This document shows positions 46,575 through 64,000 of a DNA stretch of 64,000 nucleotides, piece after piece. Under the pieces are notes generated by a model. That model saw only the letters and a program-made list of their open reading frames with translations. It was not told the origin of the DNA and did not search any database. Within the stretch, counting starts at the first letter, position 1. Each line of letters starts with the position of its first letter. Made by a program: the position numbers and the translations under genes. The DNA comes from an uncultured virus (IMG/VR IMGVR_UViG_3300022700_000138). Its lineage: Duplodnaviria; Heunggongvirae; Uroviricota; Caudoviricetes. The stretch is from IMG/VR virus record IMGVR_UViG_3300022700_000138; one strand, 5' to 3'.

Positions 46575-46954
46575 TGGTTGGTTGTTGCCGTAGGCGCGCA
46601 AGGACAATCCCAAAAGGAAGCTCGTACTGTAAACGGATAGAGCAGGGTGGTTCCCAGCTGCGGCTTTGGATTGCGGCACATCAGGGATCTTATAAATTAC
46701 TAATGCGAAATCCAGATACCATGCAGTTCGTAGACGTGCTGCAGTTTATAGCACAGAACAAATGTAACGGAGCCATGGCAAGCATGGTCCGCACGCATGC
46801 AAATAGAATACTGGATGCAATCAGAAGAGATCCAGCTACTATGCGAAAAAAAGCTGCAAACGGAACCTCCCTAACGGCACTACTAAAAACAGCTGACGCT
46901 GTGCTGAAACAGGGAGGCAAAAATGTCGTTCAAGCTCACCAAACTCGCAGATAA
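46574..46954 (+). CDS. Basic hypothetical protein
   Basis: 126 aa, coupled by TAATG overlap. Confidence 0.45.
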   Translation: MVGCCRRRARTIPKGSSYCKRIEQGGSQLRLWIAAHQGSYKLLMRNPDTMQFVDVLQFIAQNKCNGAMASMVRTHANRILDAIRRDPATMRKKAANGTSLTALLKTADAVLKQGGKNVVQAHQTRR

Positions 46955-49910
46955 AACTTGTGAAACCTGCCCACTTTATCTGCATCCTTCGGTAAACAAA
47001 CAGGTACCAACTGAAGTACACCCTAACGACCATGACGGGTCTGTAGATGTTATGTTCGTTGCGGAGGCTCCGGGTGAAACAGAGGACTCGGTCGGTAGGC
47101 CTGTGGTGGGCGTATCCGGTAAGATATTACGTAGAGTAATCGTGCAGCTTAACGGATCCGAGAAGGGTACTGCCTACGGCAACGTAGTGCGGTGTAGGCC
47201 CACTACTGAAGACGGTAACAATCGTAAACCAACCCCGAAGGAAATCGGTATTTGCTGTCCAAATATTCTGGACACGATCCGAAAAATAAACCCAAAGAGG
47301 ATAGTAATTTGCGGTAAGTCCGCAGCACAAGGTCTAGCTCTGGACCCAGATACCAGAGAACCTATTAATCCGAATATATCAATCTCGAAACTTCGAGGGT
47401 TAGATTACATCGTGCGCACACCAGATGGTAGTGAATACCCAGCTACTATAACTTACCATTTTGCCTACGTAGCACGAAATCCTGTGTCAGGCAGTATTTT
47501 CAGGGAAGACATACTACGATCATTTATGCGGGCTAAAAATGAAGTACCAGATTATTCGAAGCCCGGACGACCCGCAGTGATTGCCGATACAGTAGATAAG
47601 GTGCGTAAATTATTGGAGCATATGGTACATGGGTTAACGTCTGATACGATAGTCGCCATGGACTACGAGACCGACAGTATTTCCAGAATTAACAACAAGG
47701 TTCTAACAGTTGGGTTTGCGTTTGAACCGGATAGAGCATTTGTCATCCCGTATGAGCATGTGGAAAGCCCTTGGACATCAAGGGAGCTACAAGAAGTACG
47801 CGCCCTGCTCACCAAATTCTTCCAGACTAGAAAAGCATCTTACAGATCTATTGTACCGCATAATGCTAAGTTTGAAGCTGCAATTACAGCAGATGCTTTC
47901 GGTGCGTACCTCGGTAATCTAAAATTGGAAGATACTATGCTTAGAGCGCATGCTTTGAACGAGAATAGAAAAGCCGCGCTAGGAGCTGCGTTCGGATTGA
48001 AAACGCTAGCTGACGAGTGGCTTGGGTTTAAGGGATACGAAGAGCCGTATATTGCTGAGGTTGTAGGCTTACGCAACAACGGCGATCTAGCCTCCGCAAG
48101 TTTACGCCCCCTTTGTGATTACAACGGCATGGACTGTTACGTAACCTACCGATTATTCCATTTTGGAGAAGCGATCGCGAGAAGGGAGGGATACCAGGAA
48201 AGGTTGAAGCGGCTCGGTCTTGGAATCCATGGTCCTGAGTCCGCATTTGCATCCGCTATGGAAAGAAACGGTATTCGAGTTGATATGGACAGACTCGAAT
48301 ACTATATGACACAAGATTCTCCAATATATAGAAGACAAAAAGAATTGGAGGAGGAACTGTATGGCAAAGAGACCGTAAAAATCGCTAACAAAATGCTTCT
48401 TGGTTCCCGTAGACGGGTAGCAGGAATGCAGAGTATCTGGGGTGATCAGAAGGATGATCCATGGGTCTTCAGTATCAATAAAGCAGAATCCAAGAAGGCT
48501 CTGTATCTGGACGTGCTGGGTTTAGAAGCGAACACAACGAAAAGCGGTAAACCCTCTGTTGATAAGGATTTCTACAAAAGAAATAAAGGTATTAGGGAAG
48601 TAGACATACTTTCTGAGTGGACTGCGCTAGATAAACTACGTGGAACATATATTGAGGGCATCTATAAACTTGTACGCAATAGCAGAGACATGCAGGATGG
48701 TAGAGTCCGTGCAGCATTTAACTTTCATACTACTGCCACGTCGAGGACCAGTTCCGACTCCCCGAACATGCAGAACATTCCAAAAGGGAAGACACCAACA
48801 GCAAAAGCTATTAAGAGTCTTTACATAACGGACGAAGGCTATGTTATGGTCTGCGTAGACTACTCGCAGGCTGAGGTCCGGTGGCTTGCAGAGATGTCGG
48901 GTGATGACAATCTAATCACAGCCTTTCAAAATGTCGCCAAAGCTAAGGACGCCTACCTGAAGAACCCTACACCAGAAAACGAGGTAAGGCTGCTGTCGGA
49001 GGGTGATTTCCACAGACAAACCGCTGCGCAATTAAACGATAAAGATCCACAATACGTGACCGACCTCGAAAGGGGAGCAGCAAAGTCTGTCGTATTCGGT
49101 CTGGTGTACGGCATGTCTGCTTTCGGACTAGCAAGTCGACTTGGGATTGAAGTAAGCGAAGCCGAGGCCTACCAAGAAAAATTCCTAAATCAGTTCCCGC
49201 AGGCCAAAGAATGGCTTTCAATGGTAGAACGTCAGGGATTCAAGGAAGGTTATGTAGAATCTCCTATTGGTCGTAGAAGACATTTGTTGTCGGGGTTCTT
49301 GGTCGGGTCCGATAATCAGTTTGTTGAATTTGGTGACGGTACCAGAGTTCCCACAGATATTTGTAAATTCAAGTCATATGAAGATCGTGTTTGTCGTAAT
49401 GCGCCTATCCAGTCTATTGCCTCTGACACCAATCTTATGGCTTGCATCGCCATACAAAACTATATTATCAAGAACAGGAGAGACTGGCGTTTAATCAATA
49501 TCGTGCATGACTCGATCATCGCAGAGATTCCGTTTCCTGAAGTGGAAGAGTATACCAGAATAGTTAACCAAATCATGATCGACCCGAACCTGTTCAAAAC
49601 ATTTGGGTTTAAGCTCAGGGTTCCATTTAAGGTAGACTTCACTGTGGGACCAAACTGGGGAGACCAGCTAGACGTAGAAATAATGGAGAGGTATTTCGTC
49701 CATTGCAACTCCTGTGAAGAGGAACGGCTCGAAAAAGCCAAACCTGAAAATAGAAGGTGTGAGGAGTGCGGGTCCAAAGACGCCGCCGTCGGAATGACTC
49801 AGGGCCCACTTAAAAAACTACTGAAGTATCTAGATAGCAAGTACCTGTACAGTGAGTATTGGAAGTACCGAAACGGGAAAGAGCGCAATGAAATCGAAGT
49901 ACGATTCTGA
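46923..49910 (+). CDS. polA: Family A DNA polymerase with N-terminal family-4 uracil-DNA glycosylase domain and 3'-5' exonuclease
   Basis: UDG: CETC, AEAPG, NVVRCRP; exo: DYET, HNAKFE, YNGMD; pol: DYSQAEVR, RGAAKSVVFGLVYG, VHDS; C-terminal CxxC...CxxC. Confidence 0.93.
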   Translation: MSFKLTKLADKTCETCPLYLHPSVNKQVPTEVHPNDHDGSVDVMFVAEAPGETEDSVGRPVVGVSGKILRRVIVQLNGSEKGTAYGNVVRCRPTTEDGNNRKPTPKEIGICCPNILDTIRKINPKRIVICGKSAAQGLALDPDTREPINPNISISKLRGLDYIVRTPDGSEYPATITYHFAYVARNPVSGSIFREDILRSFMRAKNEVPDYSKPGRPAVIADTVDKVRKLLEHMVHGLTSDTIVAMDYETDSISRINNKVLTVGFAFEPDRAFVIPYEHVESPWTSRELQEVRALLTKFFQTRKASYRSIVPHNAKFEAAITADAFGAYLGNLKLEDTMLRAHALNENRKAALGAAFGLKTLADEWLGFKGYEEPYIAEVVGLRNNGDLASASLRPLCDYNGMDCYVTYRLFHFGEAIARREGYQERLKRLGLGIHGPESAFASAMERNGIRVDMDRLEYYMTQDSPIYRRQKELEEELYGKETVKIANKMLLGSRRRVAGMQSIWGDQKDDPWVFSINKAESKKALYLDVLGLEANTTKSGKPSVDKDFYKRNKGIREVDILSEWTALDKLRGTYIEGIYKLVRNSRDMQDGRVRAAFNFHTTATSRTSSDSPNMQNIPKGKTPTAKAIKSLYITDEGYVMVCVDYSQAEVRWLAEMSGDDNLITAFQNVAKAKDAYLKNPTPENEVRLLSEGDFHRQTAAQLNDKDPQYVTDLERGAAKSVVFGLVYGMSAFGLASRLGIEVSEAEAYQEKFLNQFPQAKEWLSMVERQGFKEGYVESPIGRRRHLLSGFLVGSDNQFVEFGDGTRVPTDICKFKSYEDRVCRNAPIQSIASDTNLMACIAIQNYIIKNRRDWRLINIVHDSIIAEIPFPEVEEYTRIVNQIMIDPNLFKTFGFKLRVPFKVDFTVGPNWGDQLDVEIMERYFVHCNSCEEERLEKAKPENRRCEECGSKDAAVGMTQGPLKKLLKYLDSKYLYSEYWKYRNGKERNEIEVRF

Positions 49911-58185: not shown

Positions 58186-59307
58186 ATGCGAACCACAACT
58201 TTTTTGTTCCTGAGTCTGTTTCTGGTAGCGTGTGGTACTACCGACACGCCCACGGACAACACAAACAACCAGAACACAAACACCAGCGACCCGGTCTGCG
58301 GGAACGGTATTCTTGAACCCGGGGAGGCCTGCGACGACGGAGCAGACAACTCTGATGTTGCTCCCAATGCCTGCCGCACAGACTGCCGAGAACCCTCTTG
58401 CGGAGACGGGGTCATTGACAGTGGCGAAGCCTGTGACGGTAGTGAGCTAGCTTCTAATAGCTGCGTCGGGCTTGGGTACACTAAGGGGACGCTGGCTTGC
58501 GACCCGATTACCTGTGAATACGACGTCAGAGACTGCAGTACCTGCGGTGATGGCGTTGCTGAAGGAACGGATACCTCGACAGTAGGATACGAAACTTGCG
58601 ACGGGAGTGATCTACGTGGTAAGGATTGCATTTCTATCGGGCAAGCAATGGGTACTCTTGCCTGTAATTCGTCTTGCGAGTGGGATATTTCCGGCTGCGT
58701 GGGAGGGGGCCCAGTTTGCGGAAACGGGATCGTAGAGGAGGGCGAGGAATGTGACGACGGAAACCACACCCTAACCGACAACTGCCCGGACGGACCGGCC
58801 GGAACGTGTCTCAGCGCGTACTGTGGGGATGGGTATGTTCAGGCTGGTATCGAGGGCTGTGATGATGGCAACGGTACCAATGAAGATATCTGCCCGGATG
58901 GCCCAGGTGGAACCTGCCAGACGGCAAGCTGTGGCGATGGGTTCGTGTTTACCGGAGCCGAAAACTGTGATACAGCACTGGACCCTTACTGTCACACTGA
59001 CTGCGTGGCACGTTGTGGAGATGGGACTGTGGATACTCAGTTCGGTGAGCGCTGTGATGACGGGAACAACGTAGACGACGAGGATTGCTACTCCGATTGC
59101 TCTGGCTACTGCGGCGACGCCATTGTTCACGATGGGACTTGGGACGAAAACGTCCAGGCTGTATTGCCAGATCATGGAGAAGAGTGTGACAGAGGTCCTG
59201 TTGGCGGAATTGCCTGTAGTGCAAGCTGTACGCTAACCGATTGTGGTAACGGATCCTGCTTTGAGCCAGTAGAGACACCGGACAATTGCCCGCAAGATTG
59301 TCCGTAG
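58186..59307 (+). CDS. Lipoprotein with Myxococcus cysteine-rich (DUF4215-like) repeats
   Basis: Lipobox LVAC; many CG(N/D)GxxxxGExCDDGN repeats; ends CPQDCP. Confidence 0.85.
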   Translation: MRTTTFLFLSLFLVACGTTDTPTDNTNNQNTNTSDPVCGNGILEPGEACDDGADNSDVAPNACRTDCREPSCGDGVIDSGEACDGSELASNSCVGLGYTKGTLACDPITCEYDVRDCSTCGDGVAEGTDTSTVGYETCDGSDLRGKDCISIGQAMGTLACNSSCEWDISGCVGGGPVCGNGIVEEGEECDDGNHTLTDNCPDGPAGTCLSAYCGDGYVQAGIEGCDDGNGTNEDICPDGPGGTCQTASCGDGFVFTGAENCDTALDPYCHTDCVARCGDGTVDTQFGERCDDGNNVDDEDCYSDCSGYCGDAIVHDGTWDENVQAVLPDHGEECDRGPVGGIACSASCTLTDCGNGSCFEPVETPDNCPQDCP

Positions 59308-59369
59308 TAAACGGCGTCCAGAGGTAGATGGTACCTTGACAACAGAATAGTGAACGATGCGAAGTTTTC

Positions 59370-59442
59370 GGGCCTGTAGCTCAGTTGGGAGAGCATCGCC
59401 CTTGCAAGGCGAATGTCGCTGGTTCGATTCCAGTCAGGTCCA
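59370..59442 (+). tRNA. tRNA-Ala(TGC)
   Basis: Cloverleaf, loop CTTGCAA, G3:U70 pair, TTCGATT T-loop; CCA not encoded. Confidence 0.93.
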
Positions 59443-59600
59443 CAAAATAACCAGGTAGCTGCGCTGCATGGTAGCTGCTCTAGAAGATGCGCAGGGTGTG
59501 TGGGTTATGGTGCTAGGATGGCGCTGCGGCATGGATTGATCCTCCTCAGCCTCAGTACTGGAGTACCCAGTCGGTGAATCCGATCTGCACCTATTCACCT

Positions 59601-59830
59601 AGCTGTCTTTGATAATGAGTGAATTAACTCGGTAAGACTCCGGGCTGGTTTTAATGTTTGAGCCCTGCGTAACGTAAACTGCTCGCCGAAGATCCGTCAA
59701 GGTAGGTCTGTGGCTTACTGGCAGGCGCGAAGCGGTGCGGGGCCGCGTGAGGGTAACCTCTCCCCGTGGTTGGTACGGACAGGGTTGGCAGCTATCCTAT
59801 CCCTCTGACCTTTAAATTATCAAAAGCTGC
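59601..59830 (+). ncRNA. Putative structured ncRNA domain of unknown family
   Basis: Closing helix TTTGATAAT/ATTATCAAA; nested AGCCCTG/CAGGGTT and TCCGT/ACGGA; GAGG-GTAA-CCTC GNRA hairpin. Confidence 0.5.
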
Positions 59831-60046
59831 ATCTTTGAATCGGGTTTGGGCGACCGTTCCCAAGACAAAAAACGGTCGTATTTACAATCCCGTACTACAT
59901 GATCCGTACTAGGATTGTCTTCCTCCGTGAAGCGTGTGGTACGCATCAGAGCCCTGGCCTTTAGCGGTAGGTCATTAGGTAACACGTGCGGCCGAAGTGT
60001 TATCAAAACCGTTAGGCAGGAGATGGTAATTCCGCTCCTGTCGTCT

Positions 60047-60172
60047 GGGTCTTTAGCTTGAAACCTTGGGCTTCCAGGATTAGCTCTCCACGAAAGCTCA
60101 GGGTGGACAAAGCGCTCTGTCTGGGTTCCTAGGCCAGATGGAGAGAACTGGTTCGAGTCCGGTATGGACCCA
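60047..60172 (+). ncRNA. Expanded tRNA-like RNA
   Basis: GGGTC/GACCC acceptor, GCTT/AAGC D-stem with ~50-nt insert, 10-bp anticodon-position stem, ACTGG-TTCGAGT-CCGGT T-arm. Confidence 0.65.
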
Positions 60173-60259
60173 AATCCCGGAAGAGATCAGTAGCCTTTTC
60201 CGAGGCGAACAAAAAGCTACTGAGGTTGTGGGTTCTCCAAAAGCCCTCACCCGGCAAAA

Positions 60260-60363
60260 TAGGATCAGTTGTCTTGTGCAGGATAGGTGGGAGATGTTGA
60301 ATCTTGGTCGCAAGGCTGAGAGGAATGACCCCTGAGATACCACCCATTGGCTTTTGATTGCTA
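60260..60363 (+). ncRNA. Free-standing 23S rRNA L1-stalk (H76-H78)-like RNA
   Basis: GTGCAGGATAGGTGGGAG...TTGAA-[8-bp stem, GCAA loop]-GGA...TGAGATACCACCC, collinear with the bacterial 23S L1 stalk as recalled. Confidence 0.8.
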
Positions 60364-60381
60364 ACTATTTTGTCGGTGTTT

Positions 60382-60464
60382 GGAAGGGTGGCCGAGAGGT
60401 CGAAGGCGGTGCCCTGCTAAGGCATTGAGCGAAAGCTCCGTGGGTTCGAATCCCACCCCTTCCG
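60382..60464 (+). tRNA. tRNA-Ser(GCT)
   Basis: Loop CTGCTAA, variable arm GAGC-GAAA-GCTC, G discriminator. Confidence 0.92.
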
Positions 60465-60523
60465 CTTTTCTTTACCTATATGGAGGGACGGTCTAAGTCC
60501 CCTCGTTTAGAGGTAGACACTCA

Positions 60524-60597
60524 GGGCCCATCGCCTAGTTGGTTCAAGGCACTCGGCCCATACCGGATTATCGCAGGTTCGAATCCTGCTGGGCCCA
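60524..60597 (+). tRNA. Aberrant tRNA with CAT (Ile2/Met-like), 6-nt anticodon loop
   Basis: Perfect GGGCCCA/TGGGCCC acceptor and T-arm; anticodon arm CTCGG-CCCATA-CCGGA. Confidence 0.75.
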
Positions 60598-60609
60598 ATA
60601 ACCGAATGT

Positions 60610-61357
60610 TGTTTTGTCCCTACGTCTCCAAAGCGCGCAGGAGACCTCTGGATGGACAGGCTGATGATCCTCGGTCGTGTTGCTAGTTCCTTCCCGTTAG
60701 GTTGCGCCAGGCGGGCTGTAGTTGAGCCGGGAAGACGACAGGCAGCGATAAAGCCAAAAAACGAGGGTCGCTTATTTTATGACCGTTTACCACATTGATT
60801 CAGGACTCTTTAAAATCCGGGCTGCGGCTGCGGGGAGAGAGTCACAACTGAATTAGATGTGCCACGCAATACTCGGACACTGGTTGTCGTGGGCTTAGGA
60901 ATATAGCTAAACAGTGTTCCGTGAGAGGTGGATAGCCTCAGTAGGTAGATTACCCTGGTTTGTATCCTACGAGGTCCCCTCAATAAATGGGACTAACCGG
61001 TCTGCGTAGAACGCTGCTCGCCAGTAGTGCTGGTCGGGGAGGTAGGTGAGGCACTGCGTAGGAACAAGTGAAGTGATGCCGACCAGCTACGGTTCATTGA
61101 AGTTTGGGCGTCTTCGGTGAACAAGAGATCTTAGGTAGAAACGCCAAAGGATTGGGTGAGGCTACAGTGTAAGCTCAATCCACGAGGGTAGTGGTGGACA
61201 CGCCTGCCTCAACTGCTGCCCGTTTTTTGGTTAGATAATTGGAGGTCATCTAGGCTGTGGCTCGCAGAACCTAGAGAGGCGACTGGTAGGAAGGTAGACT
61301 AACGAGCTTGGCACTGGGTAGATGAAGCCCAGGCGACTAAAACTGCCTACCGCCTCC
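60610..61357 (+). ncRNA. ORF-poor run of structured RNA domains of unknown family
   Basis: Consecutive helices, e.g. 60666-73/60762-69, 60791-803/60848-61, 61029-37/61079-87, 61149-57/61173-81, 61241-46/61352-57. Confidence 0.5.
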
Positions 61358-61371
61358 GTTTTGCGTATAAT

Positions 61372-61449
61372 GGGAGAGTTTGCGGAGAGGTCAGTTTGCC
61401 AGTGAAGGTAGAGATCACTGCGTGGGGTTAGAATCCCCCGCTCTCCCCA
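61372..61449 (+). ncRNA. Degenerate tRNA-like RNA
   Basis: GGGAGAGT/GCTCTCCC acceptor, CAGTGA/TCACTG stem, GGGG-TTAGAAT-CCCC T-arm. Confidence 0.55.
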
Positions 61450-61510
61450 TTGTATCCGCGAGAGGCGTCTCTACATTTCCTCTCGCGGATATTTTCCCCT
61501 AGGTGACGAA

Positions 61511-61732
61511 ATGGATCAAGACGAAGTAAATCGCAGATTACTGGACGCAGCCCGTGAGGGTCAGTGCGATCACGAGTATCCAGGACCCTCTTTCGATCCG
61601 GAAGAGGCACGCGGTATGACCGCCGCGCAGGTACGCGAGCGGCGGCCTCGCTTCTACTGTCCTTGCACAAAGTGCGGAGAGCACTCGATTGCCTATGCTT
61701 CGTACGAACACTATATTGCCGGTGATTGGTAG
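61511..61732 (+). CDS. Small Cys/His-containing hypothetical protein
   Basis: AGGTG SD; CDH...CTKCG...HYIAGDW. Confidence 0.65.
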   Translation: MDQDEVNRRLLDAAREGQCDHEYPGPSFDPEEARGMTAAQVRERRPRFYCPCTKCGEHSIAYASYEHYIAGDW

Positions 61733-61746
61733 ATGGTTTGTATTAT

Positions 61747-61929
61747 GCTCCACAGCACGAGACCAGGCGGCCTTGACGAAGGATGACCCATCTGGTGCGG
61801 AGCTAATGCCTAGTTGATACAAAGATTGGTGATGTTCAGGACGCTGAGACGAGTCAATCTCCAACGAAATTGTGTCATGAGCCACACGTCGTTGGAACTA
61901 GGTGCCGGGTTGAATTCCCGGGTGGGGCT
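61747..61929 (+). ncRNA. Large tRNA-like RNA with branched insertion
   Basis: GCTCCAC/GTGGGGC closing stem, CCGGG-TTGAATT-CCCGG T-arm, GCCTAGTT/AACTAGGT and TCCAACGA/TCGTTGGA helices. Confidence 0.6.
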
Positions 61930-61934
61930 GTTTT

Positions 61935-62007
61935 GCCAGTGTAGCTCAGTTGGTAGAGCAGCTGATTTGTAATCAGCTTGTCGCGGGTTCGACTCCTGTC
62001 ACTGGCT
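61935..62007 (+). tRNA. tRNA-Thr(TGT)
   Basis: Cloverleaf, loop TTTGTAA, TTCGACT T-loop. Confidence 0.95.
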
Positions 62008-62135
62008 TTTTCTTGACTACTAGAAGAAATTATGCTTATTGTAGATAGATCAGAATATATTGCATGGTGCATATCTGTTTGTAATATATGGATAGTAGAT
62101 ATTGCACTGCAATGGAACTGCAATGGAGAGGCGTC

Positions 62136-62423
62136 ATGGACATTGATCGAAAAGCTGACAAACTAGAAACTCCTGTTTGCCCACGCTGTGGCAACGAAAT
62201 GACCCCGACCATAACAGAAGCCGTGTATCACGATGGTCAAAACATTCCAGTTAGAGGTGGTGGCCTTCAAACGTTCGTACCCATTGCGCACCGCCACTGC
62301 TTTCAATGTGAGCAATGCACTCCACCACGCGCAGTGATTGAAGTCCCTTATACTGCAGAAAGAGACTACTGCGTCTGGAGTAACAACCATGAACCCAAAC
62401 GAGACACTAACGAAAATTCGTGA
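62136..62423 (+). CDS. Zn-ribbon hypothetical protein
   Basis: CPRC and CEQC; ATG 62136 with GGAGAGG SD. Confidence 0.55.
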   Translation: MDIDRKADKLETPVCPRCGNEMTPTITEAVYHDGQNIPVRGGGLQTFVPIAHRHCFQCEQCTPPRAVIEVPYTAERDYCVWSNNHEPKRDTNENS

Positions 62424-62616
62424 AGTGGTGAACCTTGTTCGGTTACCGCTGAAATGGTTAATACCTGGGCTAGGCAGGATCCCTTTGGACACGATGAGGT
62501 AAACCGCCGCATTTGTGTTGAGGCCCGCGCCAAGCGTTTGGGTTTCTGGGGGTCGTACGAAAAGTGCGACGGTGAGGGAGTTATTTACCCGACTGATAAA
62601 GCTCAGGTGAACTTGA

Positions 62617-62991
62617 TTTTGTGGATGCTGCATCCGACACCCTCCGTCCGGAGCAGTGGCAGAATCCACCGAAGAACGTCACCAGCACACGAACAAAAAG
62701 ATCGCGTTCAATCGGTTGGTGAAGACGAAAGAGTTTCAGAATTGGGCTCGGTTGCAAGCGGCAGCAGTAGAGCAAGGCTACCGTAATATCGAAGAGAAGG
62801 TCGAAAAGTCGATGACGCCCAACAACCTGAAAGTAGAACACGTAACGACTTACACTTGTGACTCTTGTGGTAGGTCGGAAACAGTTACTTCTACGGATCC
62901 TCTTGACGTGCCTACTTGGTTGGTGTACAGTGGAGAGGATCCCCGAAAGGTAGAGCAACACAGATGTACTGCCTGTGAGAGCAGGAAATGA
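62617..62991 (+). pseudogene. 5'-truncated peptide chain release factor-like (RF-1/ArfB domain) gene lacking GGQ
   Basis: IRHPPSGAVAESTEERHQHTNKKIAFNRL matches the post-GGQ part of RF-1 domains; in-frame TGA at 62614 and 62608. Confidence 0.6.
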
Positions 62992-63239
62992 GCAAGCGTG
63001 CACTAAGGCGACACCACCGTCGGAGGCTTTTCCAAAAGCGCAGACGCTACTGGTCTAGTTTGTCTGATCATCCGAGGATGCTTCGTGTTATAGCTAAAAC
63101 ACCCCAGAGATGTTCTTGTGTTATGTGTAGCGGTAGCGCAGGTCGGAAACACGGCGAGGTTACACTACAGGAGCGAGCGGCCGAAATGGACGAAGAAGAA
63201 CAAATCTCTGCTCATATAGTGAGTGCGGAAGAAAAATAA
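62988..63239 (+). CDS. Small basic protein with CSCxMC motif
   Basis: RRHHRRR...TPQRCSCVMC...VTLQER; ATGA overlap with the upstream stop. Confidence 0.65.
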   Translation: MSKRALRRHHRRRLFQKRRRYWSSLSDHPRMLRVIAKTPQRCSCVMCSGSAGRKHGEVTLQERAAEMDEEEQISAHIVSAEEK

Positions 63240-63244
63240 AATAA

Positions 63245-63319
63245 CGGGGCGTAGCGCAGTCTGGTCAGCGCGCCTGGTTTGGGTCCAGGATGTCGGAGGT
63301 TCAAATCCTCTCGCCCCGA
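63245..63319 (+). tRNA. tRNA-Pro(TGG)
   Basis: CGGGGCG/CGCCCCG acceptor, loop TTTGGGT, TTCAAAT T-loop. Confidence 0.95.
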
Positions 63320-63633
63320 ATGGTGCGCAGCATACAACTCGGTATTCATGCCAATCTCCTGTTCCTCGTTGGAATTGCGAAGTGGTTTGGCTGCGTACCT
63401 TTACTGAGAGTCAGTGGTCATTGAGACCTGCTAGGTGCCTCAATAGTGGAGACGCAGTGAGTGTCTCCCAGATCACTTCATTTGTCTCACCTAAGTAAGT
63501 GAGGCAAATTGAGTGTGGCTGGGCATGCCATGCTCTCCTTACACCTGGGCAAGTGATTAAACTGCCCACTTTTTGACCTCATCGGGCCACCCCAATATTG
63601 CTACGTGGTCAGAGGAGAGACGCCATCATTATC

Positions 63634-63661
63634 TTGACATTTGAGTCTAGCTTGGTACAGT
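63634..63661 (+). promoter_or_regulatory. Sigma70-type promoter with extended -10
   Basis: TTGACA-N16-TACAGT with TGn immediately before the -10. Confidence 0.6.
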
Positions 63662-63715
63662 GGTAGGTGAGCTAGTCAACGTGGTAGCAATTTTAACGTG
63701 TAGGAGAGGATCATA

Positions 63716-63913
63716 ATGGACGCATCCCAACTCATCAGATTCGGGGAAATGTCTTTTCTGTTTGCCTTTTCCTTGGGTGGTATTTACTGGACGCTGTTGG
63801 TGCCGCTGGTTCCGGTCGTCAGCAGGTCAGCGTCGACGATTGGTGCAATGAGCACTATGATTTATTTGGCAAAAAGTTCGGAGTCGTCAGGTTTCCATTC
63901 GATGGGTACGTAA
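63716..63913 (+). CDS. Small hydrophobic hypothetical protein
   Basis: AGGAGAGG SD, 65 aa. Confidence 0.4.
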   Translation: MDASQLIRFGEMSFLFAFSLGGIYWTLLVPLVPVVSRSASTIGAMSTMIYLAKSSESSGFHSMGT

Positions 63914-63963
63914 CCTTCTCTATTGTTCGAGTTACTGACTGACGACGTAGGAGGAGCTTCAAA

Positions 63964-64000
63964 ATGGATCCAAACGTGTACCTTACGACCATGCGCGAGA
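63964..64000 (+). CDS. Partial CDS (MDPNVYLTTMRE...)
   Basis: AGGAGG SD, runs off the window. Confidence 0.5.
   Translation, partial: MDPNVYLTTMRE

What the first reader, a model, noticed from the sequence alone, without database searches (positions are those of the whole stretch)
60260..60363. Phage-encoded stand-alone mimic of the 23S rRNA L1 stalk (H76-H78)
Seen: TGTGCAGGATAGGTGGGAGATGTTGAA-TCTTGGTC-GCAA-GGCTGAGA-GGAATGACCCCTGAGATACCACCC, enclosed by an imperfect helix (TAGGATCA.../...TGATTGCTA). Established (E. coli 23S ~2093-2196, recalled from memory): UGUGUAGGAUAGGUGGGAGGCUUUGAA-GUGUGGAC-GCCA-GUCUGCAU-GGAGCCGACCUUGAAAUACCACCC. The two align without gaps. The two T-loop-forming segments are nearly identical. 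The H78 stem differs in sequence but still forms 8 pairs with a GNRA loop. I recognise no flanking rRNA, and the element sits between a tRNA-like RNA and tRNA-Ser. The L1 stalk binds protein uL1 and the tRNA elbow. Inference: a retained RNA module that titrates uL1 (affecting L11-L1 operon autoregulation or ribosome assembly), binds tRNA elbows, or decoys ribosome-targeting defence factors.
Basis: partly seen in the sequence, partly recalled or inferred. Interest (0 to 1): 0.92.

Follow-up and report, generated by a model that had tools for sequence, protein, structure and literature searches.

The report
Phage gene copying the ribosome's L1 stalk
A large uncultured phage carries, among its tRNA genes, a small RNA gene that copies one working part of the ribosome (the L1 stalk, which holds protein uL1 and grips departing tRNAs), and similar lone copies occur in at least nine other phage lineages, pointing to an undescribed way for phages to interfere with host translation.

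Summary
Window 60275-60346 (+) matches only positions 2135-2206 (H76-H78) of Rfam's bacterial LSU rRNA model, without gaps (39.7 bits, E 5e-11). No other rRNA-like sequence lies around it. The element runs from 60252 to 60375, is closed by its own 11-bp helix, and ends 6 nt before tRNA-Ser. The window is a myovirus-like phage contig.

It is not a one-off. Three pattern scans of IMG/VR returned 26 contigs. Fifteen of them, in 9 sequence lineages, carry a lone L1-stalk domain with private closing helices. Six are real rRNA pieces, one is ambiguous and four are chance hits. Four lineages including the window have the element inside tRNA arrays, co-oriented with the tRNAs. All four helices covary (85.9% of cells paired against 64.4% shuffled; 19 of 24 pairs with double changes). 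The double T-loop core and the tRNA-stacking platform are intact in the window.

The function is inferred, not shown. My best guess is a stable RNA cut from the tRNA precursor that binds host uL1, possibly with tRNA elbows, as a free decoy. No relative of this phage was retrieved, expression is untested, and read continuity could not be checked. I found no publication; this scan noted a similar element once before on other DNA (e1-1050371).

The parts
60252..60262 (+). 5' strand of the private 11-bp basal helix that closes the element (pairs with 60365-60375)
   Evidence: MFE fold; sequence. It has no counterpart in rRNA flanks.
60263..60274 (+). 5' side of the irregular middle part of the extended H76-like stalk (short helices and internal loops)
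   Evidence: two 3-bp helices in the MFE. It does not fit the consensus register of the other phage copies (5 of 8 basal pairs non-standard).
60275..60285 (+). H76 pairs U60275-A60346 and G60276-C60345, then the 9-nt bulge. The bulge holds the platform residue G60278 (equivalent of G2112) and T-loop 1, AGGAUA (60280-60285).
   Evidence: Rfam alignment. Motif definition from PMC3664808 section 8.
60286..60290 (+). Distal H76, GGUGG, pairing with CCACC at 60340-60344
   Evidence: 100% paired across 11 phage copies, with 2 covarying pairs.
60293..60295 (+). H77 5' strand (GAU), pairing with AUG at 60325-60327. The first pair is a G.G mismatch.
   Evidence: NC line; pair 38-73: G-C in 10 of 11; the window is the exception.
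60302..60321 (+). H78 hairpin: 8 pairs and a GCAA tetraloop
   Evidence: 7 of its 8 pairs covary across phage copies.
60328..60339 (+). 12-nt loop holding T-loop 2, UGAGA (60333-60337). Its apical A60335 is the equivalent of A2169.
   Evidence: PMC3664808; PMC5309774.
60347..60375 (+). 3' side of the extended stalk, ending with the 3' strand of the basal helix (60365-60375)
60382..60465 (+). tRNA-Ser(GCU), 6 nt downstream. Its RNase P site would define the 3' side of the element (inferred).
   Evidence: 59 bits
60048..60172 (+). Upstream tRNA-like structure (T-arm-like hairpin 60148-60162). Context only, not part of the stalk.
   Evidence: In a ~91% identical relative, the changes at 60148 and 60149 keep the stem paired.
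59370..59443 (+). tRNA-Ala(UGC), first gene of the co-oriented RNA gene cluster that holds the element

Best explanation
SHOWN: 60252-60375 is a self-contained RNA domain that reproduces the whole head of the bacterial 23S rRNA L1 stalk. [quoted passage not shown] It is closed by a private helix and sits in a co-oriented cluster of phage tRNA genes. Analogous lone domains exist in at least nine other phage lineages and keep the structure through compensatory changes. INFERRED: it is transcribed with the tRNAs. It is freed on its 3' side by RNase P cutting at tRNA-Ser, and on its 5' side by tRNA 3'-end or double-strand processing. It then accumulates as a stable ~125-nt hairpin. Because isolated H76-H78 fragments fold on their own and bind uL1 tightly, the RNA most likely captures host uL1 (the phages encode none) and forms a free 'L1-stalk head' particle. 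That would act as a sponge. It would draw uL1 away from its operator on the L11-L1 mRNA and possibly from ribosomes. With its intact G.A platform it could also hold tRNA elbows. The physiological pay-off for the phage is not known.
For: Identity: local LSU hit confined to model positions 2135-2206, E 5e-11, no gaps. All six core residues of the double T-loop module (AG..A with the extra U; UG..A) and both platform residues (G60278, A60335) are present, as defined in PMC3664808 and PMC5309774.

Stand-alone: no other rRNA similarity in the surrounding 5 kb. There is one copy per window. In 10 whole phage records the LSU model hits one piece only, never beyond model positions 2115-2256, in 7 of 10; the other 3 had no hit at E<=0.01.

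Not a copy of a known rRNA: two exact patterns built on the window's junction sequences found 0 of about 185,000 species' genomes. Identity to the rRNA pieces in hand is 57-75% over the core.

Recurrence: 15 of the 26 viral contigs retrieved carry lone copies, in 9 lineages, all confirmed by the covariance model.

Selection on structure: 85.9% of cells paired against 64.4% in shuffles (0 of 500 reach it) and 38-53% when the partner is slid. 19 of 24 pairs change on both sides. RNAalifold independently predicts the same four helices: 22 pairs, 17 with compensatory changes. L008 and L006 share non-rRNA flanks (CUAGGU......CCUUUCC) yet differ by compensatory changes in basal H76, H77 and H78. In L002 and L003 a ~135-nt island holding the element is identical between ~400-nt non-homologous flanks.

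Context: the element lies inside co-oriented tRNA arrays in the window, G002 (39 tRNA matches), G003 (28) and G005 (43; 263 kb, 100% complete).

uL1 as partner: H78 is absent from modules that only dock tRNA (T-box stem I; PMC3664808) and from eukaryotic stalks (PMC5309774). Here it is kept with covariation in all copies. A 55-nt 23S fragment binds L1 alone (PMC2175363). The uL1-rRNA complex outcompetes the mRNA operator complex (PMC10931766). No Ribosomal_L1 gene was found in 0 of 10 phage records or in the window, so any uL1 must come from the host.
Against: There is no expression or processing evidence of any kind, and no RNA run holds the stretch. No relative of this phage's own element was retrieved, so conservation is shown across analogues, not within this lineage.

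The window's H77, at the heart of the uL1 site, has a G.G mismatch where 10 of 11 copies have G-C. The predicted fold is no more stable than shuffles (z -0.51).

The family was fished with patterns that demanded the T-loop and H76 residues, so their invariance among the copies is partly circular. The one scan that relaxed them added a single copy, L048, which keeps AG..A and UG..A.

Covariation in H76-H78 could be inherited from different donor rRNAs rather than evolved in phages. Copies are as far from each other (53-79%, excluding L005/L013, which are one lineage at 97%) as from rRNAs.

Four of the ten lineages have the element far from any tRNA gene. No benefit of uL1 sequestration to a phage is known.
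Confidence: 0.45

Rival explanations
1. tRNA-elbow binder without uL1. The double T-loop platform docks the G19:C56 elbow of phage or host tRNAs or pre-tRNAs, as in RNase P and T-box stem I. This could chaperone, order or shield tRNA processing in the array, or hold deacylated tRNA.
For: Both platform residues and both T-loops are intact. The same module is the elbow-docking device in three other RNAs (PMC3664808; PMC5309774). Four lineages place the element within tRNA arrays, 6-52 nt from a tRNA gene in three of them.
Against: Elbow stacking alone is a weak, unspecific contact that the known systems combine with other contacts (PMC3664808 discussion). No second tRNA-reading element is seen. 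H78, which is dispensable for elbow docking, is kept in all copies. The 2112-equivalent is not invariant: it is U in L002/L003 and A in L029 and L048. Four lineages are far from tRNA genes.
Confidence: 0.2
2. Decoy for another factor that recognises the L1 stalk. Candidates are a host defence toxin or ribosome-associated factor, or a phage protein that docks on the stalk. The free RNA soaks it up or regulates it.
For: The copy reproduces the complete surface of the stalk head, more than uL1 operators on mRNA need. It recurs in unrelated large phages. No conserved neighbouring protein gene is seen, which fits a host partner.
Against: No factor of this kind is identified here, and I know of no toxin that targets the L1 stalk (recalled; no call). 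There is no defence or anti-defence gene context in the window.
Confidence: 0.12
3. Cis-acting processing or stability element. The long stalk is simply a structured spacer (an RNase III/RNase P landmark or exonuclease block) in the tRNA precursor. In some phages it could be a 5'-UTR or terminator element, and its rRNA likeness would reflect ancestry only.
For: The window's stalk is about 21 bp with loops and abuts tRNA-Ser. In L008, L006 and L019 the basal helix is followed by a T-run. In L006 a 12-of-12 sigma-70 promoter follows 40 nt later. In L008 and L012 an ORF with a ribosome-binding site starts about 30 nt downstream.
Against: A mere spacer or terminator would not need intact T-loops, H77 and H78 in ten lineages. 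The terminator scanner reports none at the element.
Confidence: 0.1
4. Relic or artefact. It could be a decaying remnant of a captured host rrn operon (16S - tRNA-Ile - tRNA-Ala - 23S), or host rRNA reads mis-assembled into the contig.
For: tRNA-Ala(UGC) lies about 830 nt upstream in the window, and tRNA-Ile(GAU) lies directly upstream in L019. These are the usual rrn spacer tRNAs (established knowledge). Read continuity could not be verified.
Against: The boundaries fall exactly at the base of H76 and are sealed by private helices in every lineage. The sequence between tRNA-Ala and the element has no residual 23S similarity. Only 72 nt are rRNA-like, at 57-75% identity to the rRNAs in hand, and the junction sequence is absent from about 185,000 reference genomes. 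A mis-join would carry near-identical rRNA over a read length. Other lineages are flanked by tRNA-Arg or tRNA-Val, or by no tRNA.
Confidence: 0.06

Closest known systems
L1 stalk of bacterial 23S rRNA (H76-H78, E. coli about 2093-2196)
   Same: The secondary structure is the same, column for column. It has the double T-loop core, the G.A platform, and H78 with a GNRA-type loop. It is the bacterial type, since eukaryotic stalks lack H78 (PMC5309774).
   Different: It is not part of an rRNA. It has no H75/H79 junction and is closed by a private helix. It is encoded by a phage among tRNA genes. H77 is weakened by a G.G mismatch.
uL1 autoregulatory operators on rplK-rplA mRNA (bacteria and archaea)
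   Same: They are RNA mimics of the uL1 site of 23S rRNA that compete with rRNA for uL1 (PMC10931766; PMC2175363).
   Different: Operators copy only the small H77/H78 junction motif, lie in cis before rplK or rplA, and bind more weakly than rRNA. Here the whole head domain is copied, no rplA or rplK is nearby, and action would be in trans.
[quoted passage not shown]
   Same: They share the AG..A / UG..A interlocked T-loops that present a stacking platform for the tRNA elbow (PMC3664808).
   Different: Those modules lack H78 and are parts of larger RNAs with further tRNA contacts. Rfam finds no RNase P or T-box match here.
Non-tRNA stable RNAs in phage tRNA clusters (phage T4 species 1 and 2 RNAs; recalled, no call)
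   Same: They are small stable RNAs of unknown role, co-transcribed and co-processed with phage tRNAs.
   Different: I know of no reported rRNA likeness for them. blastn of the window's element against 50,697 phage records found only rRNA-type contaminants.
   Same: It reports a small RNA gene with a 68-nt copy of the L1-stalk head, read as a decoy.
   Different: It is a different genome and context (two facing sRNA genes, not a tRNA array). No sequence likeness to the window was found by the look-up.

Membership tests
[quoted passage not shown] 2013, PMC3664808) | T-loop 1 with closing A...A and conserved G at position 2 (AG..A), with an extra U between positions 4 and 5 | tested here: met
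   AGGAUA at 60280-60285; definition read
[quoted passage not shown] 2013, PMC3664808) | T-loop 2 with UG..A | tested here: met
   UGAGA at 60333-60337. Position 4 is G instead of A, which is not a core residue.
[quoted passage not shown] 2013, PMC3664808) | Platform formed by the residue two before T-loop 1 (2112) and the apical residue of T-loop 2 (2169) | tested here: met
   G60278 and A60335. Sequence level only.
[quoted passage not shown] 2013, PMC3664808) | The two loops actually interlock in three dimensions | not testable with these tools
   No RNA 3D prediction is available. The MFE fold cannot model T-loops.
Bacterial 23S rRNA (Rfam RF02541) | Score at or above the gathering threshold, and embedding in a full LSU rRNA | tested here: not met
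   39.7 bits against 50. Only model positions 2135-2206 of 2925 match. There is no other LSU match nearby.
uL1-binding site of 23S rRNA | H77 stem next to GGGAG, plus H78 and the connecting loops | tested here: inconclusive
   H78 (8 pairs) and the loops are present. H77 has 2 of 3 pairs (G.G at 60293/60327). The list of uL1-contact nucleotides was not available in the papers I could read.
uL1-binding site of 23S rRNA | Binds uL1 | not testable with these tools
   Complex prediction takes no RNA. Needs gel shift or filter binding.
uL1 autoregulatory mRNA operator | Lies in the leader of rplK or rplA | tested here: not met
   No Ribosomal_L1 or L11 gene in the window. The downstream gene is tRNA-Ser.
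T-box riboswitch / RNase P RNA | Match to the family model (specifier loop and antiterminator; catalytic core) | tested here: not met
   No such Rfam match at E<=10
tRNA / tmRNA | Cloverleaf or tmRNA model match over the element | tested here: not met
   ARAGORN and Rfam find none at 60252-60375

The most novel reading that the evidence does not exclude
Large phages repeatedly, and probably independently, lift single working domains out of their hosts' ribosomal RNA and express them as free RNAs from their tRNA operons. The L1-stalk copy assembles with host uL1 into a free 'E-site arm'. This arm strips or titrates uL1 and grips deacylated tRNAs, retuning the host ribosome pool and tRNA cycle in favour of the phage's own tRNA set. 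That would be a new class of translation-hijacking RNA, an rRNA-domain decoy.
Probability: 0.3. Interest if true: 0.92.

Novelty: new variant of a known kind. Interest (0 to 1): 0.82.

Why it matters
Phages are known to bring tRNAs, tmRNAs, translation factors and a few ribosomal proteins, but not pieces of ribosomal RNA. A free, selectable copy of the L1 stalk would be a new kind of tool for manipulating translation. It would also be a natural experiment on what the stalk head does when detached from the ribosome, and a ready-made small RNA for probing uL1 autoregulation and tRNA-elbow recognition. It also shows a blind spot in annotation. The hit disappears in ordinary Rfam runs on a few kilobases and appears only when about 200 nt are searched, so such elements are probably under-counted.

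Tried and rejected
Relatives of this phage:
- megablast of 59300-63400 against 50,697 phage records found only a 62-nt tRNA-like match.
- Two protein-seeded scans of IMG/VR found no relative.
- Two exact-pattern scans of JGI metagenomes gave 0 hits.
- Covariation within the window's own lineage therefore could not be tested.

Read continuity and expression:
- The look-up of sequencing runs listed 2 DNA runs of one marine-sediment study with small shares (0.14, 0.08) and no RNA holder.
- Read laying showed Logan contigs of a ~91-98% identical relative over 59331-59443, 59842-60235 and 61187-61731. That contig stops 69 nt past 60235, and nothing bridges the element.
- This is no evidence either way on assembly or expression.

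Donor rRNA:
- Two exact patterns in genome contigs gave 0 hits.
- This excludes an identical junction in the reference genomes but not a similar rRNA, and many assemblies lack rRNA.
- A broad rRNA phylogeny could not be built, because no taxon-centred genome search is possible without a held genome.

Cultured phages:
- blastn of the element and of the L005 and L019 loci hit only rRNA contaminants or tRNAs.

Other readings:
- Protein-coding: the three ORFs overlapping the element (81, 72 and 65 aa) have no Pfam hit, and the 81-aa ORF, the only one of them scanned against PHROGs, has no hit there either.
- tmRNA for the upstream RNA: only a sub-threshold ARAGORN call, with no Rfam support.
- Other rRNA-domain copies in the RNA-rich region: none.
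- Phage-encoded uL1: 0 of 10 records.
- Intrinsic terminator at the element: none by the scanner.

Literature:
- Five searches found no description of a phage-encoded L1-stalk RNA.
- Nevskaya et al. 2005, on the L1 recognition motif, is not in the library, so uL1-contact nucleotides could not be checked residue by residue.

Full report
WHAT IS THERE

The window is a phage contig. It encodes a tail sheath (phrog_15433, E 1.6e-102), tail proteins, an endolysin-like protein, a family-A DNA polymerase fused to a UDG domain, GyrB/GyrA-like topoisomerase subunits, a Dam-type methylase and a dCTP deaminase. All are on the + strand. No whole genome is held for it.

After the last long ORF (58186-59307), an RNA-rich, ORF-poor stretch begins. 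Its G+C is about 53%, against about 45% in the coding part. It holds tRNA-Ala(UGC) at 59370, tRNA-Ser(GCU) at 60382, tRNA-Met at 60524, tRNA-Thr at 61935 and tRNA-Pro at 63245, all on the + strand.

THE OBSERVATION

A cmscan of 60200-60400 aligns 60275-60346 to positions 2135-2206 of Rfam's bacterial LSU rRNA model. There is no gap, the score is 39.7 bits, and E is 5.1e-11. The matched model segment is distal H76, H77, H78 and the two connecting loops.

The same hit is absent from the whole-window gathering search and from a 5-kb E-value search. Ordinary annotation would therefore miss it.

No other rRNA-like match exists in 59000-64000. A covariance model built from the phage copies finds only one copy in the 64 kb.

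The minimum-energy fold closes the domain with an 11-bp helix (60252-60262 with 60365-60375) and an irregular middle section. The element is therefore 124 nt, 60252-60375, and ends 6 nt before tRNA-Ser.

The fold's energy is not unusual (z -0.51). The three short ORFs that overlap the element match no Pfam family, and the one of them also scanned against PHROGs (81 aa) matches none.

ANATOMY AGAINST THE PUBLISHED MOTIF

Lehmann et al. [quoted passage not shown]
- T-loop 1 is residues 2114-2119: AG..A with an extra U.
- T-loop 2 is residues 2167-2171: UG..A.
- The platform is formed by residues 2112 and 2169, and it stacks on the tRNA G19:C56 pair.

Mohan and Noller confirm the G2112-A2169 platform. 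They also state that H77/H78 form the head that binds L1, and that eukaryotic stalks lack H78 (PMC5309774, passages).

In the window:
- T-loop 1 is AGGAUA (60280-60285).
- T-loop 2 is UGAGA (60333-60337).
- The platform residues are G60278 and A60335.
- H78 has 8 pairs and a GCAA loop.
- H77 has 2 of 3 pairs; the first is G60293.G60327.

At the sequence level the module is complete. The one blemish is in H77.

IS IT AN ARTEFACT OR A FRESH COPY OF HOST rRNA?

Only 72 nt are rRNA-like. Their identity to the rRNA pieces I had in hand is 57-75% over the core. Two exact patterns built on the window's junction sequences found nothing in one genome each of about 185,000 species. The flanks pair with each other rather than resembling 23S.

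A mis-assembly with host rRNA reads would carry near-identical rRNA over a read length, so it is unlikely. I could not verify this directly. The only public runs holding related DNA are two marine-sediment metagenomes from one study. They hold a ~91-98% identical relative whose contig stops 69 nt beyond 60235 and does not bridge the element.

IT IS A RECURRENT PHAGE ELEMENT

Three pattern scans of IMG/VR returned 26 distinct contigs:
- Four are chance matches that the covariance model rejects (L017, L021, L023, L047).
- Six are true rRNA pieces, whose similarity runs on beyond the stalk. These are L001, L007, L009, L015 and L030 by Rfam, and L038 by its flanks.
- One sits at a contig end and is ambiguous (L014).
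- Fifteen contigs, of 4.8 to 263 kb, carry a lone stalk domain.

The fifteen fall into nine sequence lineages: L002/L003; L004/L008/L011; L005/L013; L006/L010; L012; L019; L026; L029/L033; L048.

In ten whole records the LSU model hits exactly one piece, never beyond model positions 2115-2256, in seven of them. The other three gave no hit at E<=0.01, though my model finds the element in them. None of the ten records encodes a Ribosomal_L1 protein. Two of these records are rated 95% and 100% complete.

Each lineage closes the domain with its own helix of 6-11 bp, unrelated in sequence to the others.

STRUCTURE IS UNDER SELECTION

On 11 stand-alone sequences, 85.9% of pair cells are standard pairs. 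The figure is 64.4% in column shuffles (0 of 500 reach the observed value) and 38-53% when partners are slid by 1-3 columns. 19 of 24 pairs show changes on both sides. Distal H76 is 100% paired, H77 97%, H78 87% and basal H76 72%. RNAalifold predicts the same four helices unaided, with 22 pairs, 17 of them compensated.

Two caveats apply. First, much of this covariation could have been inherited from different donor rRNAs, since the copies are as far from each other as from rRNAs. Second, my patterns required the T-loop and H76 residues, so their invariance is partly built in. The scan that relaxed T-loop 1 and part of T-loop 2 added one copy, L048. Its loops are AGAAUA and UGGGA, which still keep AG..A and UG..A.

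Two observations speak for constraint within phages:
- L008 and L006 share non-rRNA flanks (CUAGGU before the element, CCUUUCC after it). Yet they differ by compensatory changes in basal H76, H77 and H78.
- L002 and L003 are about 95-100% identical phages. A ~135-nt island holding the element is identical between them, while about 400 nt on each side are non-homologous.

CONTEXT

The element lies inside long, co-oriented tRNA arrays in:
- the window;
- G002 (39 tRNA matches at 40.7-74 kb; element at 65.6 kb);
- G003 (28 matches at 24-50 kb; element at 47.1 kb);
- G005 (43 matches at 151-197 kb; element at 178.8 kb).

The nearest tRNA gene is 6 nt away in the window, about 52 nt away in L005 and about 20-35 nt away in L019. 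In two further lineages a co-oriented tRNA lies about 3 kb upstream (L008, L002/L003). In four lineages tRNAs are far away or absent from the record (L012, L026, L029/L033, L048).

In L008, L006 and L019 the basal helix is followed by a T-run. In L006 a 12-of-12 sigma-70 promoter follows 40 nt later. In L008 and L012 a small ORF starts about 30 nt downstream. The one feature common to all contexts is the domain itself, which favours a trans-acting RNA.

HOW IT MOST LIKELY WORKS

Shown: this is an autonomous, conserved copy of the full bacterial stalk head, in phage RNA gene clusters.

Inferred: it is co-transcribed with the tRNAs. RNase P cutting at tRNA-Ser releases its 3' side. Processing behind the upstream tRNA-like structure, or cleavage of the long stalk, releases its 5' side.

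Established knowledge:
- A 55-nt H76-H78 fragment binds L1 on its own (PMC2175363, passages).
- The uL1-rRNA complex is more stable than the uL1-operator complex, so new rRNA releases uL1 from its mRNA (PMC10931766, passages).

Inference: a free stalk RNA made at tRNA-like levels would capture host uL1. It would derepress the L11-L1 operon or deplete ribosomal uL1. As a uL1-RNA particle it could also hold tRNA elbows. All copies keep H78, which pure elbow-docking modules lack, and this tips me toward uL1 as the primary partner (confidence 0.45).

The rivals are:
- a uL1-independent tRNA-elbow binder (0.20);
- a decoy for another stalk-binding factor (0.12);
- a cis processing, stability or terminator element (0.10);
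- a relic or artefact (0.06).

One hint on origin: tRNA-Ala(UGC) lies upstream in the window and tRNA-Ile(GAU) lies directly upstream in L019. These are the usual rrn spacer tRNAs, which may mean the domain came in with a captured rrn fragment. That bears on origin, not on retention.

COMPARISON AND NOVELTY

The element works like, and at sequence level is, an L1-stalk head. It is not an rRNA, not an rplK/rplA operator, not a T-box and not RNase P (see the membership table).

I found no description of a phage-encoded L1-stalk RNA in five literature searches, nor in Rfam 15. An earlier AI note of this scan (e1-1050371) reports a similar lone copy on other DNA. I could not check that note, and I do not count it as support.

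I rate the element a new variant of a known kind: rRNA mimicry for r-protein or tRNA binding, here as a free phage gene. The bolder reading, rRNA-domain decoys as a phage strategy, remains open.

Noticed in passing
window 60048-60172 (wider: 59901-60171): A tRNA-like structure with a T-arm-like hairpin (60148-60162) and a possible 6-bp acceptor-like helix (60048-60053 with 60166-60171) lies 80 nt upstream of the stalk. ARAGORN calls a 'permuted tmRNA' with tag VRQEMVIPLLSSGSLA* only at -ps90, and Rfam finds nothing. In a ~91% identical marine-sediment relative, the changes at 60148 (C>T) and 60149 (T>C) keep the stem paired, and 60157 G>A makes the loop more tRNA-like.
   Followed up: partly
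window 61372-61447: There is a weak tRNA-Sec-like match (22.2 bits, E 0.15-0.56). It lies in an ORF-poor stretch that is ~98% conserved in the marine-sediment relative (61187-61731). It may be another tRNA-like RNA.
   Followed up: no
window 59308-63300: About 4 kb has almost no credible ORFs, holds five tRNAs, and has G+C about 8 points above the coding part. Several unassigned structured RNAs are likely. The relative lacks 59444-59603 and has 59647-59841 replaced by 18 nt, so these parts are dispensable.
   Followed up: partly
window 59370-59443 and L019:1598-1675(-): The tRNA genes lying upstream of the stalk copy are tRNA-Ala(UGC) in the window (~810 nt before the element) and tRNA-Ile(GAU) directly upstream in L019. 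These are the two usual rrn spacer tRNAs. This may be a trace of capture from a host rrn operon.
   Followed up: partly
L029:2308-2362(-) and L033:2309-2363(-): A twister-P1 ribozyme-like match (44.3 bits, below the gathering score of 67.2) lies about 800 nt from the stalk copy in two 156-166-kb phage contigs.
   Followed up: no
L006:1605-1632(+): A perfect 12-of-12 sigma-70 promoter (TTGACA-16-TATAAT) lies 40 nt after the stalk copy and its T-run. In that phage the element therefore ends one transcription unit.
   Followed up: partly
L002:1470-1610 vs L003 (reverse strand): The stalk copy lies on a ~135-nt island that is identical between two otherwise ~95-100% identical phages. The ~400-nt flanks on both sides of the island are non-homologous, so the neighbourhood is mosaic or cassette-like.
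   Followed up: partly
L008/L006/L012, just 3' of the basal helix: These three lineages share a CUUUCC tail. In L008 and L012 it could pair with the Shine-Dalgarno-like sequence of the small ORF that follows, which hints at a cis-regulatory use in this subfamily.
   Followed up: no
G010 (L048 record) 90250-90386(-): Here the LSU model match is longer (model positions 2115-2256) than in the other phage records (about 2125-2216).
   Followed up: no
L030 (IMG/VR contig of 6.5 kb): This contig joins tobamovirus elements (IRES_Tobamo at 153.8 bits, the UPD pseudoknot) to an rRNA-like piece. It is probably a chimeric assembly in the viral collection.
   Followed up: no
window 46923-49910: The DNA polymerase A carries an N-terminal uracil-DNA-glycosylase-superfamily domain (PF03167, E 3.6e-17) ahead of the 3'-5' exonuclease and polymerase domains.
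   Followed up: no
window 63367-63946: ARAGORN at a lowered threshold proposes a tRNA-Val with a 498-nt intron. This is doubtful.
   Followed up: no
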